This document shows positions 5,545-37,427 of a DNA stretch of 64,000 nt, in pieces. Under the pieces are notes generated by a model, which ran no database searches, had not been told where the DNA came from, and was given only the letters and a program-made list of their open reading frames with translations. The position numbers and the translations under genes are program-made. Each line of letters opens with the position of its first letter. Position 1 is the stretch's first letter. Source of the DNA: Octopus vulgaris (taxonomy: Eukaryota); contig OX597823.1 of NCBI GenBank assembly GCA_951406725.2, forward strand, positions 63,736,001-63,800,000, in the 5' to 3' direction.

Positions 5545-5644
5545 NNNNNNNNNNNNNNNNNNNNNNNNNNNNNNNNNNNNNNNNNNNNNNNNNNNNNNNN
5601 NNNNNNNNNNNNNNNNNNNNNNNNNNNNNNNNNNNNNNNNNNNN
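5545..5644. other. Assembly gap (100 N) inside IFT88
   Basis: Run of exactly 100 N, a typical unknown-size scaffold gap. Confidence 0.99.
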
Positions 5645-29056: not shown

Positions 29057-29585
29057 ATACAAGCTACTAACGTTTGTTTTCGTTCTGTTGTTTACATTTG
29101 TAAAGTTTATCGCTAGGATGGGCTGAGGGATTAGTCAGGGGTTAATGAAAACGATAAGAAAGATAAAATAAAATTATATATGAATACGAAATAATATATT
29201 ACAATATATATATATTCTTTCATTCTTTGACTGCGGCGGATGCTGGAGCACCGCCTCAAAGGGTTTTAGTTGAAGAAATCGACCCCAGGACTTGTTATTC
29301 GTAAGCCTAGTACTTATTCTATCGGTCTCTTTGCCGAACCTACAAGTTACGGGAACATAAACACAGCATCGTCGGTGGTCAAGAGATAGTGGGGAGGACA
29401 AACACACATATACGGCAGGCTTCTTTATGTTTCTGTCTATGAAATCCACTCACAAGGCTTTGGTCGGCCCAAAGCTATAGTAGGAGACATTTGCCCGAGG
29501 TGTCACATAGTGGGACTGAACCCGGAACCATGTGGCTGAGAAACAAGCTTCTTACCACAACCACTCCTGTATGTATGTGTGTGTG

Positions 29586-29823: not shown

Positions 29824-29943
<120 letters not shown>

Positions 29944-30105
29944 ATCGCCATATTAATATGGCATTCTTATAGATATAAGAATAATCGCTGCCATGGTCAG
30001 CTCCATGAGGCCACCGCCATCAAGATAGCTATTGATACACGATCTGTATCCATTATAACCTTCGAACAAGGGAGGTCAGCCGCTTCACACTGCCAGTCCG
30101 ACAGC

Positions 30106-30143
30106 TACAGACGCGTTTCGGGGTATTGCCCCTTGTCAATGTA
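30106..30143 (-). ncRNA. Hammerhead-like motif with variant core (TTGACAA)
   Basis: Minus strand: TACA-TTGACAA-GGGG(CAATA)CCCC-GAAA-CGCG-TC^TGTA. Stems perfect, two core substitutions. Confidence 0.65.
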
Positions 30144-30308
30144 ACGCAGTCAGACCCGCAGGTGTCGCCACTGACGTCTCTGTTCGAAGGCTTATATTTA
30201 CCTAGTTTCAGTGGAATACATCCACTTGTTTTCAATAATAGAAATATTAAAATTACTAAATCTCTATAAAAGAGATTATGGCAGCGTTTACTGGAAAAGC
30301 CTTTTTAA

Positions 30309-32122: not shown

Positions 32123-32301
32123 AAAAATACCCTGTTGTTGATGTTGAAATTCCAATGAAGGAATCTTGGATCTATGTTAGAAACTAGTTCTTTCTCCTAT
32201 TAGCAAGAAATCTTGAAATAAACTGAATAATGACATACATACATTCATAGGTACATACAAACATACATACATGTATACATATATATGTATACATATACAT
32301 G

Positions 32302-32361
<60 letters not shown>

Positions 32362-33545
32362 ATTTTCTTTATTTATATATATATATATATATTTTTTTTT
32401 TTTAATTTTATTATGTATTTTTATAATGCATTTGCTATATGTATTTGGAGGATATATTTATATGTTGATGGGTGTTATTTAGTGGTGTTTTTATTGAGTT
32501 TTGTATGTATGTGTGAATGTTTATGATCCCTTTGTTTTTTGTTTTTATTTAGTATGTTGAATTGACAGATTTTATTTGGGTATTGTCTGTTATAATAAAG
32601 TACACACACCCATAACGAATATAAGTGCCCACTTCATTCGCTGTACCTGGAATTGCATGTGAGCCTCAACATATACACCTAACGGCCACTCCCGCCCCAT
32701 ATGGATAAATAAATACATACATCCCCAAAAATGGGCGTAATCCCACTCACACAAATCATATGTATACAATTATACACACTAGAATAATACATAACTAACC
32801 CAAATATACAGAACATACCAAAAATTACCATTTAACCACTATCACATATGAAACCCACACCCATACAATGACAAAACTCCCCACTCCATACCCAATTTAC
32901 ACCTACATAGCAATCCCAATATATTCATCCATACATGGACGCACGTGCGTGAAGCATATGCATACAATAAATACGTACAACCCCCCAATACACACTCATA
33001 TACATACGTATCAAGCTTGACATCCACAGCGATACGTTTACACCCACTCACACCAAGATGGGTGAATTGCACAACCAGGGAACGCACACACACATGTGTG
33101 CGTTTTTTGATTGTGCAACTCGCCTATATGCATGTATGCGGGCGCGATTACATTGTTGCATATATCGAGCCTAAATAGCATGCATATGTACATTTGAGGG
33201 GGTACACGCTAATGACGTGCGCGTGTACCCCCTGCATTTATACCCGTGCGTGAATATACACATGGAGACTACCACACAGGTATAAATGTGTATAGTATTG
33301 GGAGCCATATCACTACACTCAATGTATACTCTCACCCATCAGCACGGATGTGAAAGTGAATCTCCGGTGTATATGTTGAGGCTTATTTGTAGCGCTGTGG
33401 TGGAACGTCGTTGAAATTGTGAATGAATGGGTGGAGTTGGGAATTGTAACCGGGTGGTGGACTAGCGTTGCTTGGAATTTGTGAGTGGAATAGTGTAGTA
33501 GTGAGGTAGGCATCGAGAATGGGTTGGGTTGCTGCAAGTTGTTTG

Positions 33546-35704
33546 TTAGAGCTGCTAAGTTGAGCTAAAGCTCATAAATGTATATAATGATTTTTCATGG
33601 TAGTTTTTTTAAAGAATCCATTCATAATAAATTTTTTTAAGTAGTGTTGGTTTGCCACGTGGATATAGTTTTTAGTTCCATTTATTCTTTTTCTCCATTC
33701 ATAATTTTAAATGACGTTTACTTTCCATGGCGCGTATTCTTTTTTTACATAAGTTATTTCTATGGTAACGTAATTTTGGTTTGATTTTTTTAACGGCTAA
33801 GAATTTAATTTCACTTCATAATTTGAAACTGACTTGTAAGTATGTTTTTTATTTATCCTTATGTCATATTGTTATTTTTGATATTCTGGTTAATTACGAT
33901 GTATTTAATGTTGTTTTCGAGATTGTGTGTGAGTTTTTAGTTGTATAATTTATTTATCTGTATGAGTGTGGGTGTGTAAATATTGTTGTATATATCGAGT
34001 TTAGTGAGTATGTATATGCGTATATGTGAGGGAGTATATGTATCTGTTGTGTGTGTGTGTTTTGCGTGTGTGTGTGTTTGTGTGTGAATGTGTATATGGG
34101 TTTGTTATTTAGGTTTTGGGATGTATGTGTTAATTTGTCTGTGTGGTGAGGGAGTGGGTTTTGGTGTATATTGAGGTTTATAAGTTAGTATAGGTATGTG
34201 TATAAGTCGTGGGTCTGTGGTTTAAGTGTGTGTATTTGTGTGTGAATGTTTAGGTTAGGGGGATTGCTATATAGGTTTGTTATAGAGTTTAGCATAGGGA
34301 GATTTTATCGTTATAGGTTTTAAGAGATTTGGTTTATCATGGTTTTTTTAGGGAATTCGTGGTAATTTGTCTATTTTCGATGTTGGTTGTTTTATTACAT
34401 TGTTTCATTCATAATTTTTGAGTGGTGTTCGTTTTGCCACGTGAATATTATTTTTAATTCCATTTATTCCATTTCTCCATTCATTAATTTAGAGATGTTC
34501 GTTTCCAGAGCGGTTATATTTTTTATACATATGTTAAGTTCTTTGGTAAAGTAATTTTGTTTGGTGTATATGTTGAGGCTTATTTGTACTTGTGGGTGTG
34601 TGTGAGTGGGGTGGATTAGAGCTGCTAAGGTGAGCTAAAGCTCATAAATGTATATAATGATTTTTCATGGTAGTTTTTTAAAGAATCCATTCATAATAAA
34701 TTTTTTTAAGTAGTGTTGGTTTGCCACGTGGATATAGTTTTTAGTTCCATTTATTCTTTTTTCTCCATTCATAATTTTAAATGACGTTTACTTTCCATGA
34801 CGCGTATTCTTTTTTTACATAAGTTATTTCTATGGTAACGTAATTTTGGTTTGATTTTTTAACGGCTAAGAATTTAATTTCACTTTATAATTTGAAAATG
34901 ACTTGTAAGTATGTATTTTATTTATCCTTATGTCATATTGTTATTTTTGATATTCTGGTTAATTACGATGTATTTAATGTTGTTTTCATAGGAGTGTTTA
35001 TGTATATGAGATTGTGTGTGAGTTTTTAGTTGTATAATTTATTTATCTGTATGAGTGTGGGTGTGTAAATATTGTTGTATATATCGAGTTTAGTGAGTAT
35101 GTATATGCGTATATGTGAGGGAGTATATGTATCTGTTGTGTGTGTGTGTTTTGCGTGTGTGTGTGTTTGTGTGTGAATGTGTATATGGGTTTGTTATTTA
35201 GGTTTTGGGATGTATGTGTTAATTTGTCTGTGTGTGGAGGGAGTGGATTTTGGTGTATATTGAGGTTTATAAGTTAGTATAGGTATGTGTATAAGTCGTG
35301 GGTCTGTGGTTTACGTGTGTGTATTTGTGTGTGAATGTTTAGGTTAGGGGGATTGCTATATAGGTTTGTTATAGAGTTTAGCAAAGGGAGATTTTATCGT
35401 TATATGTTTTTGGGAGTTTTGGTTTATCATGGTTTTTTTAGGGAATTCGTGGTAATTTGTCTATTTTCGATGTTGGTTGTTTTATTGCATTGTTTCATTC
35501 ATAATTTTTGAGTGGTGTTCGTTTTGCCACGTGAATATTATTTTTAATTCCATTTATTCCATTTCTCCATTCATTAATTTAGAGATGTTCGTTTCCAGAG
35601 CGGTTATATTTTTTATACATATGTTAAGTTCTTTGGTAAAGTAATTTTGTTCGTGTATATGTTGAGGCTTATATGTACTTGTGGGTGTGTGTGAGTGGGG
35701 TGGG
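33546..35704. repeat. Tandem duplication, unit ~1070 bp, with internal sub-repeats
   Basis: TTAGAGCTGCTAAG(T/G)TGAGCTAAAGCTCATAAATG starts at both 33546 and 34616. The units are nearly identical apart from a ~20 bp indel near 34990. Confidence 0.92.
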
Positions 35705-36735
35705 TGTTTGTATTTGTTATGGGTGTGTGGTTTACATGTGTGTTTTTGTGTGTGAATGTATAGGTTAAAGGGATTGCTATATTAGTATGTTATAGTGTTT
35801 AGTAAAGGGAGGTTTTATCATTTCTGTTTTGTGAGTTTTAGCTTATCATGGTAGTTTTATAAAAGAATCCATTCATAATTTTTGTGTTTATTTGTCTGTG
35901 TGGGGTTGAGTGGGTTTTTGGAGTATATGTTGAGGTTTATATGTATGTATTGGTATGTGTAAGTGGTGTGGGTATTTGTATATGTCGTGGGTGTGTGGTT
36001 TACGTGTGTGTATTTGTGTGTGAATGTTTAGGTTAGGGGGATTGCTATATAGGTATGTTATAGAGTTTAGTAAAGGGAGATTTTATCATTATATGTTTTT
36101 GTGAGTTTTGGTTTATCATGGTAGGTTTGTTAAGGAATTCGTAGTAATTTGTGTATATTTGGGATGTCTGTTGTTTTATTGCATTGTTTCATTCATAATT
36201 TTTAAGTAGTGTTCGTTTTACTAAGTGAATATAATTTTTAATTCCATTTATTCCATTTCTCCGTTCTTAATTTTGAGTGATGTCCGTTTTCTAGAGCGTG
36301 AATGTGGGTTGTATGTGTGTGTGTGTGGGAGTATGAATAAGTATTGTGTTGAAGTATTTAGCTATTTTATTTATTTATAGTTGTCTAGACGTTTTTATGT
36401 GTATGTATAGGGATATATATATAGGTGTGTGGTTTAGTGTATGTAGTTAGATATGGTTATATATAATTAGGTATATGTGTTTGGGTGTATATATAGTTTA
36501 TTATTATATTATTATTATTTTTTTGTTTTGTTTTATATTTTATATTTTATATTTTATATTTTATATTTAATTGTTGATAGGTTTATTTTAGTTTATATAT
36601 TGTTTATATATTGATTATATATGGATTATATTTAGGTTATATATGGATTATATATTTATATTTTTTCATTCATACTTTAATTATTTTAAAATTATTATTT
36701 GTATATTTTAAAATTTTGATATTTTAGATTGAAGT

Positions 36736-36778
36736 CCACCTGAAGATTGTCGATCAAGACAAGAAACGATTGTAGTGG
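36736..36778 (+). ncRNA. Minimal type I hammerhead ribozyme, intact core
   Basis: CCAC-CTGAAGA-TTGTC(GATCAA)GACAA-GAAA-C(GATT)G-TA^GTGG. Stems I and II pair perfectly; GUA cleavage triplet. Confidence 0.85.
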
Positions 36779-37378
36779 CGGTTTTTTTGACTATTTATTA
36801 AAATTTTATGTATTGATTAAGTCTTTCCTTGTTTGTTTTGCAAAATAGTGGTTTTGTCTCTAATAATATTTTATATATACATATATATATATATACATAC
36901 ATATACATATACATACATACATATATATACATATATATATATATCATCATCATCATCATTTAACGTCTGCTGGCATGAATTGGATAGTTTTGACCAGAAC
37001 TAGCAACCTGGAGCACTACACCAGACTCCAATCTGATTTGGCATGTTTTCTATGGCTGGATGCCCTTCTTTATGCCAGCCGCTTTACAGAGTGTGGTAGG
37101 TGCTTTTACATGGCACCACACGGGTGCTCTTATGTGACACTGCTTGCGTTCTTTTATGTGATGGCACATGGGCACTTTTACATGGCACTACCATGAGTGC
37201 TTTACACCACCAGCAGGAAGGTGTGGCTGTGTGGTAAGTAGCTTGCTTACCAACCACATGGTTCTGGGTTCAGTCCCACTGCATGGCATCTTGGGCAAGT
37301 GTCTTCTGCTATAGCCCCGGGCCGACCAATGCCTTGTGAGTGGATTTGGTAGACGGAAACTGAAAGAAGCCTGTCGTA

Positions 37379-37427
<49 letters not shown>

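What the first reader, a model, noticed from the sequence alone, without database searches (positions are those of the whole stretch)
32595..33600. ~1 kb diverged fold-back whose arms carry directional transition changes (possible fossil of A-to-I or C-to-U hypermutation)
Seen: a palindrome centred at ~33094. One 70-nt module aligns without gaps in the left arm (32997-33066, reverse), the right arm (33119-33188) and the tandem units (33949-34018, again near 35040). By hand count, 14 of 15 C's in the right arm are T in the tandem copy, in CA, CC, CT and CG contexts, with no reverse T-to-C change. The left arm read on the minus strand has 5 G's where both other copies have A, though it also has some G-to-A and T-to-C differences. 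Inference: much of this fits A-to-G on one minus-strand hairpin transcript, i.e. ADAR-hyperedited RNA reverse-transcribed back into the genome. The alternative is strand-specific cytosine deamination of the tandem copies. CpG decay alone cannot explain it.
Basis: partly seen in the sequence, partly recalled or inferred. Interest (0 to 1): 0.75.

Follow-up and report, generated by a model that had tools for sequence, protein, structure and literature searches.

The report
Layered RNA edits in octopus retrotransposon
This fold-back is part of a jumping gene with many copies whose two hairpin arms had about half their A letters turned to G on one strand, most likely by the RNA-editing enzyme ADAR before the RNA was copied back into inherited DNA, and older copies show it likely happened again in later rounds.

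Summary
Confirmed and extended. The palindrome lies in a ~3.5 kb non-coding Penelope-type retroelement (32341-36899; 3' hammerhead, (TA)n targets, 53 copies treed). A second layer lies on the plus strand: eight old copies differ pairwise by about 53 A/G against 11 C/T changes, clustered, depleted after G and near predicted helices; one edited founder passed its edits to the lineage that includes this window. Younger subfamilies show little A/G excess but a strand-specific C>T and A>T drift that I cannot explain. Best reading: ADAR-type hyper-editing repeatedly fixed by retrotransposition (inferred; no RNA reads or enzyme test). My searches found no paper on germline-fixed ADAR edits in a retrotransposon family; this scan has noted the same phenomenon on other DNA in this and other octopus-type genomes, but not this family.

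The parts
32341..36899 (+). Whole non-coding Penelope-type element (about 3.5 kb without the local duplication), between (TA)n tracts; + is the inferred RNA strand
   Evidence: shared left end near 32341 and right ends 36875/36899 in dispersed copies; no ORF of coding character, longest stop-free frame 109 aa
32341..32590 (+). G/T-rich 5' segment; no A/G variation among old copies
   Evidence: composition; 0 of 46 A sites edited
32603..33092 (-). Left arm: inverted copy of the G/T-rich module; carries layer-1 A>G on the minus strand and later plus-strand A>G clusters (about 32640-32710, 32937-33080)
33093..33096 (.). Centre of fold-back 1
33096..33330 (+). Right arm: direct copy of the module with about half of its T changed to C (A>G on the minus strand)
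   Evidence: 48 T,C,T columns of 220 in L126; 27 of 218 left in the window copy
33395..33590 (-). Inverted arm of fold-back 2 (inverted copy of the C-containing module); strongest plus-strand A>G target
   Evidence: 31 G-for-A vs 9 T-for-C differences from its paralogues; 31 of 40 A sites variable in the bin at 33456
33591..33900 (+). C-containing module, partner arm of fold-back 2
   Evidence: predicted pairing with 33395-33590
33916..34330 (+). G/T-rich module used as unedited outgroup; predicted plus-strand partner of the left arm
34593..35703 (+). Young ~1.09 kb tandem duplication of 33525-34614 (95%), seen only here and in the 99% identical copy L021
36736..36778 (+). Minimal type I hammerhead motif (4-bp stem I, 5-bp stem II)
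   Evidence: pattern scan; core intact in 15 of 18 copies that matched the anchor; no Rfam hit; cleavage untested
36797..36899 (+). 3' terminus, followed by (TA)n here or by a shared tail in other copies
   Evidence: 83% like the end of a short sister family

Best explanation
The fold-back is a fixed part of a multicopy non-coding Penelope-type retroelement, and both of its arms carry about 50% A-to-G changes on one strand that were likely made by ADAR on the folded RNA and then likely written into germline DNA by reverse transcription. Step 1 (inferred): a head-to-head insertion made a near-perfect hairpin whose RNA, today's minus strand, read in the element's sense direction; it was hyper-edited in both arms and re-inserted. 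Step 2 (inferred): that edited piece was built inverted into the present element. Step 3 (pattern shown, enzyme inferred): on the new plus-strand RNA the inverted arms paired with downstream modules and were edited again, first in fold-back 2, then separately in each old copy (26-64 A>G per copy). Step 4 (shown): one edited founder gave the main lineage, in which A/G divergence fell about six- to tenfold and a plus-strand C>T and A>T drift of unknown cause began erasing the layer-1 pattern, giving the mixed picture in this window.
For: Layer 1, copy L126, columns where both paralogues agree: right arm T>C 40 of 72 with 0 T>A or T>G; left arm A>G 14 of 30; 5' neighbour on the edited strand T 21/29, A 13/21, C 14/31, G 0/3, A/T vs C/G p=0.024; minus-strand fold -241 vs plus -90 kcal/mol. 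The pattern holds in 10 of 10 copies examined and decays from old to young (T,C,T columns 48 to 31; 27 in the window). Layer 2: 28 pairs of 8 old copies average 52.9 A/G, 11.3 C/T, 14.0 transversions, against 8.9/10.9/13.5, 5.7/6.0/11.4 and 5.4/10.1/18.2 in three younger groups; with A/G ignored the old copies form a near star; G alleles cluster within 6 nt in 9 of 9 copies (p<=0.013), 5' G 15/148 vs A 56/257, T 82/498, C 24/203 (chi2 p=0.005); whole 100-nt bins are untouched; edited A lie in more paired windows (15.6 vs 13.0 of 21, p=1e-6). Direction follows the element, not the assembly strand (4 plus-strand and 3 minus-strand old copies plus reference). 22 of 76 later A>G events hit the same hot sites (10% expected, p=6e-6). 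The genome has adenosine-deaminase-domain genes (13 PF02137 matches on 4 contigs) and an RT+GIY-YIG element with 781-aa frames. Precedents: PMC12925331, PMC11702581, PMC5625713 (passages).
Against: No edited RNA was seen and no enzyme was tested. Counted as singletons only, A>G per site (60/1106) is not above C>T (37/482) in the old copies; the excess lies in recurrent or inherited sites (114 informative A/G vs 20 other), so some events are shared by descent and per-copy counts are not independent. G depletion rests on 3 sites in layer 1 and p=0.04 in layer 2; no 3' preference (p=0.22); whether the edited A itself is paired is not significant (81/118 vs 363/593, p=0.15). A 5' A/T preference is also the recalled signature of polymerase eta. 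The fall in editing is not explained by loss of helices (7 vs 5 helices of 15 bp or more). The mobilising partner was not identified: the 781-aa family shows no similarity to this element beyond microsatellite.
Confidence: 0.85

Rival explanations
1. Strand-specific cytosine deamination of the tandem modules, or slow plus-strand C>T and A>G drift, produced the differences between arms.
For: A real plus-strand bias exists in the main lineage: terminal C>T 160/398 vs G>A 92/719 sites, internal 48 vs 5 events, on both assembly strands and context-matched (CpA 0.64 vs 0.11, CpG 0.79 vs 0.21).
Against: It would need the left arm (opposite strand) and both paralogues to lose the same 40 C independently; C,T,T and T,C,C columns are 0 in L126. 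The drift runs the other way: it removes right-arm C with time. It explains the decay, not the origin.
Confidence: 0.04
2. An error-prone DNA polymerase or the element's RT (T-dG wobble errors in second-strand synthesis, polymerase-eta-like) or deamination of single-stranded DNA made the A>G clusters.
For: 5' A/T preference; a general plus-strand bias C>T, A>G, A>T fits errors made while copying the minus strand.
Against: Purity (A>G 303, A>T 44, A>C 4 minor alleles in the old copies; 0 transversions at right-arm T sites), about 50% density confined to both arms of one duplex, untouched single-stranded bins, and no such excess in 30 copies of an autonomous element in the same genome.
Confidence: 0.07
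3. APOBEC-type G>A editing of the cDNA, with G ancestral.
For: 136 G>A minor alleles among old copies.
Against: A/G sites are skewed to rare G (58, 37, 32, 20 sites with G in 1-4 copies); the 48 sites with G in 7-8 copies are about what background gives; outgroup modules have A. PMC4866542 (passages) found no such editing in 19 invertebrate genomes.
Confidence: 0.02
4. Recombination or conversion between diverged subfamilies, or sequencing error, mimics editing.
For: Four-gamete incompatibility is as high at other informative sites (83 of 190 pairs) as at A/G sites (2994 of 6441).
Against: Mosaics would shuffle all substitution types; only A/G is in excess. Edited haplotypes recur at separate loci (L130 and L134 differ at 9 A/G sites only) and are inherited by dozens of copies.
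Confidence: 0.02

Closest known systems
[quoted passage not shown]
   Same: Nearly 50% of A changed to G in an inverted-repeat region of an RNA that was then reverse transcribed.
   Different: Single retroviral isolates; here an endogenous germline retrotransposon family, with several successive layers on opposite strands, inherited by dozens of copies.
ADAR-edited pseudogene insertions made by human L1 in cultured cells (PMC11702581, passage)
   Same: Clustered T>C limited to inverted repeats in retro-inserted DNA (3 of 235 insertions).
   Different: Somatic, experimental, passenger mRNAs; not inherited or amplified.
APOBEC 'DNA-edited' LTR elements in vertebrate genomes (PMC4866542, PMC2873906; passages)
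   Same: Deaminase footprints fixed in genomic retroelement copies.
   Different: G>A on the sense strand from cDNA editing, vertebrate-limited; here A>G tied to RNA duplexes.
Penelope-like elements, Neptune/Naiad-type structure, and their non-autonomous derivatives (PMC8557442 passages; PMC11167929 part 1 of 4; 10.64898/2026.07.22.740005 part 1 of 5)
   Same: 5' truncation, partial tandems, inverted 5'-truncated partner, tail at one end, (TA)n targets, type I hammerhead near the 3' end.
   Different: No ORF, 3.5-4.1 kb, one hammerhead per unit, built from repeated fold-backs; the parts read mention no fixed editing.
Hyper-edited RNA in octopus and lizard Penelope elements (PMC5625713, passages)
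   Same: Very high hyper-editing in octopus; Penelope RNA is a major target in lizard; 5' G depletion and weak 3' G preference in invertebrates.
   Different: Those are RNA-level edits; here the marks stand in genomic DNA.

Membership tests
ADAR hyper-editing footprint | A>G on the same strand in both arms of a duplex | tested here: met
   right 40/72, left 14/30 in L126
ADAR hyper-editing footprint | Depletion of G 5' of edited A | tested here: met
   0/3 in layer 1, 15/148 vs 162/958 in layer 2, p=0.04; modest power
ADAR hyper-editing footprint | Clustering and restriction to double-stranded regions | tested here: met
   9 of 9 copies clustered; more paired neighbourhood p=1e-6 but pairing of the A itself p=0.15; predicted structure only
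ADAR hyper-editing footprint | Inosine in RNA and dependence on ADAR | not testable with these tools
   needs raw stranded RNA with matched DNA or an enzyme assay
APOBEC DNA editing of retroelements | G>A on the sense strand | tested here: not met
   G>A is the rarer transition on the sense strand
Penelope-like element (structure) | 5' truncation with conserved 3' end; partial tandems; inverted 5'-truncated partner | tested here: met
   (e.g. L023, L025, L029, L046, L049, L052/L053)
Penelope-like element (structure) | Tail at one end; microsatellite target; type I hammerhead | tested here: met
   ribozyme cleavage not tested
Penelope-like element (autonomous) | RT plus GIY-YIG ORF | tested here: not met
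   no ORF in 32300-36900; so non-autonomous
Penelope-like element (non-autonomous) | 3' end shared with an autonomous family | tested here: inconclusive
   no match to the 781-aa family in 4 loci; the 83% match is to a short sister family, none of 14 loci showed a linked ORF
Non-LTR retrozyme | Tandem units each with a type I hammerhead | tested here: not met
   one motif per element; the internal tandems (33327-36139) lack it

The most novel reading that the evidence does not exclude
RNA deamination is the main author of this element's sequence: ADAR bursts at each new fold-back, on whichever strand was then transcribed, plus a steady sense-strand C-to-U process, so that the family is a dated, layered record of germline editing, and the lineage that spread is one that had already been edited and then largely escaped further editing.
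Probability: 0.3. Interest if true: 0.85.

Novelty: new variant of a known kind. Interest (0 to 1): 0.7.

Why it matters
RNA editing is normally temporary. Here it appears to have become inherited mutation several times in one retrotransposon lineage, at a rate that for a while outran all other substitutions about two to one. That implies ADAR activity on retroelement RNA in the germ line or early embryo, shows that a heavily edited template can still be reverse transcribed and stay mobile, offers a DNA-only way to read past ADAR preferences, and warns that repeat ages from raw divergence are inflated in such families.

Tried and rejected
tRNA or mitochondrial origin: no tRNA in the window; Rfam gave only sub-threshold microsatellite matches. 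Coding capacity: none. My first reading, gradual drift plus a flip without an editing burst, was dropped. Polarising layer-2 sites with the large internal duplication returned no table. Inosine misread as T as the cause of the A>T excess: rejected, A>T sites avoid edited neighbourhoods (6 of 33 vs 401 of 1106). CpG methylation as the cause of the C>T drift: rejected, it is one-stranded even at CpG. Helix loss as the reason editing faded: not supported. Search for the autonomous partner: not found. Public runs: no RNA holder listed; only contigs were available, which cannot show editing. An independent read check of an edited old copy was not obtained. Loci L135-L140 were used only in the hammerhead count; L130 (sister of L134) and L133 (short, poor alignment) were dropped from the layer-2 counts; L042, L052, L059, L060 were dropped from the tree as partners or duplicates. 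Literature searches for a printed case found none; subscription journals and all supplements were not seen.

Full report
Observation. The 70-nt module aligns ungapped in the left arm, right arm and both tandem units; 14 of 15 right-arm C are T in the tandem unit with no reverse change, in CA, CG, CT and CC contexts, and the left arm has 5 private G. The centre folds far better than shuffles.

What it sits in. A search of the own genome (2.8 Gb, 227 contigs; octopus-type is my inference from recalled repeats and from the scan's notes) found the whole kilobase in 40 of 40 scored candidates at 89-100% identity; the 3' end gave 1303 candidates. Copies share a left end near 32341 and right ends at 36875 or 36899, sit in (TA)n, are often 5'-truncated, form partial tandems and head-to-head inverted pairs, and end in (TA)n or a shared tail. 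A minimal type I hammerhead lies at 36736-36778 on the plus strand (intact in 15 of 18 anchored copies). There is no ORF. These are the structural marks of Penelope-like elements (PMC8557442, passages; PMC11167929, part 1 of 4). The genome has an autonomous RT+GIY-YIG family, but it shares no sequence with this element, so the partner is unknown. Hammerhead strand and truncation polarity make plus the RNA strand (inference). The 1.09 kb tandem at 34593-35703 is local to this copy and L021.

I used real old copies and the element's own direct modules as outgroup. In L126, over 220 columns (left, right, module): T,C,T 48; G,A,A 18; C,T,T 0; A,G,G 1; T,C,C 0. In columns where two paralogues agree, the right arm changed 40 of 72 T to C with no transversion at T, and the left arm 14 of 30 A to G. 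On the minus strand both are A>G. 5' neighbours: T 21/29, A 13/21, C 14/31, G 0/3. The minus strand folds into the full hairpin (209 pairs, 86 G-U), the plus strand does not (30 pairs). Seven right-arm G>A columns remain; they are about what private A>G in the module plus 50% editing of the left arm would give (6 A,A,G columns), an inference. On the minus strand the left arm reads in the element's sense direction, so the edited RNA was likely an ordinary head-to-head transcript that was later built in upside down (inference; antisense editing with a template switch is not excluded).

Layers 2 and 3, plus strand. 33395-33590 is an inverted copy of the C-containing module and forms a second fold-back; already in L126 19 of 50 sites are A>G on plus. 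The oldest subfamily is a near star once A/G is ignored, yet its 28 pairs differ on average at 52.9 A/G, 11.3 C/T and 14.0 transversion sites in 2.2 kb; three younger groups give 8.9, 5.7 and 5.4 A/G. Among 8 old copies plus L055, 177 of 1106 A sites carry G in at least one copy; each old copy has 26-64, clustered (9 of 9, p<=0.013), depleted after G, with no 3' preference, and absent from whole bins at both ends and in 32758-32856 and 33159-33359. Edited sites lie in better-paired predicted neighbourhoods, although pairing of the A itself is not significant. Against over-reading: singleton A>G per site is not above singleton C>T, so the excess is recurrence at hot sites plus inheritance. L055's group inherited 78 G and founded the lineage that leads to the window; 22 of 76 later A>G events still fall on hot sites.

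A further process. In a tree of 53 copies, main-lineage changes are one-stranded: terminal C>T 0.40 vs G>A 0.13 per site, A>T 0.14 vs T>A 0.07, A>G 0.075 vs T>C 0.034; internal C>T 48 vs G>A 5 (the internal counts depend on rooting on the old group). It holds on both assembly strands and in matched contexts. Thirty copies of the autonomous family are symmetric, though that sample is shallow. Root-to-tip distance rises from about 0.02 in L055's group to 0.067 in the window copy, which suggests changes made during transposition rounds. Transcription or second-strand errors, or C-to-U deamination of RNA, are candidates; I cannot choose. This drift explains the decay of layer 1 in the window and probably the C-poor modules.

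Mechanism and rivals. Purity, about 50% density in both arms of one duplex, same-strand polarity, neighbour order and recurrence match ADAR (5' G depletion and weak 3' preference in invertebrates: PMC5625713, passages). Deaminase-domain genes are present (not checked for dsRNA-binding domains). Cytosine deamination of the tandem units, APOBEC-type cDNA editing, recombination and error are each contradicted above; an error-prone polymerase is the best remaining rival. No RNA read or enzyme test supports ADAR directly.

Known and new. Closest are avian retroviral A>G hypermutants (via review PMC12925331), three L1-made edited pseudogenes in cultured cells (PMC11702581) and APOBEC-edited LTR elements (PMC4866542; PMC2873906). 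Seven searches found no paper on germline-fixed ADAR edits in a retrotransposon family; supplements and subscription journals were not seen. After reaching this reading I found that the scan has noted the same phenomenon on other DNA (2 notes in other genomes, 8 shown of 40 fitting in this genome); sequence look-ups found no note on this family. What this family adds: clean outgroup polarity, layers on opposite strands, a burst confined to one subfamily, and the separate C>T drift.

Verdict. Observation confirmed, interpretation supported, new variant of a known kind, interest 0.7.

Noticed in passing
window 30060-30190, minus strand: A second hammerhead-like motif with a variant core, read by eye, in what looks like another retroelement end running towards the (TA)n tract near 29940.
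   Followed up: no
window 29404-29559 and 37230-37385: Inverted pair of a short interspersed repeat, 83% complementary, flanking the element.
   Followed up: no
L141-L154: Short sister family (864 candidates) sharing the 3' end and tail, with a longer-stem type I hammerhead motif, often as tiny head-to-head palindromes of 300-600 bp.
   Followed up: partly
L092:1001-6215: Autonomous Penelope-like element: 359-aa frame, 781-aa RT+GIY-YIG frame with a CxxxxCxxC linker, direct pseudo-LTRs, variant hammerhead core; many 97-99% copies; A/C-rich sense strand, opposite to the element studied.
   Followed up: partly
main-lineage copies, whole element: Sense-strand C>T (strongest at CpA and CpG, absent at CpC) and A>T bias of unknown cause.
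   Followed up: partly
L077, L055 and other old copies: Older subfamilies carry an extra ~510 bp internal module at window position 35883 that the younger lineage lost.
   Followed up: partly
public contigs X14, X16, X19: The element is also held by runs labelled as three other organisms, so it may predate their split.
   Followed up: no
window 5545-5644: Assembly gap: 100 N in the window, first at 5545.
   Followed up: no
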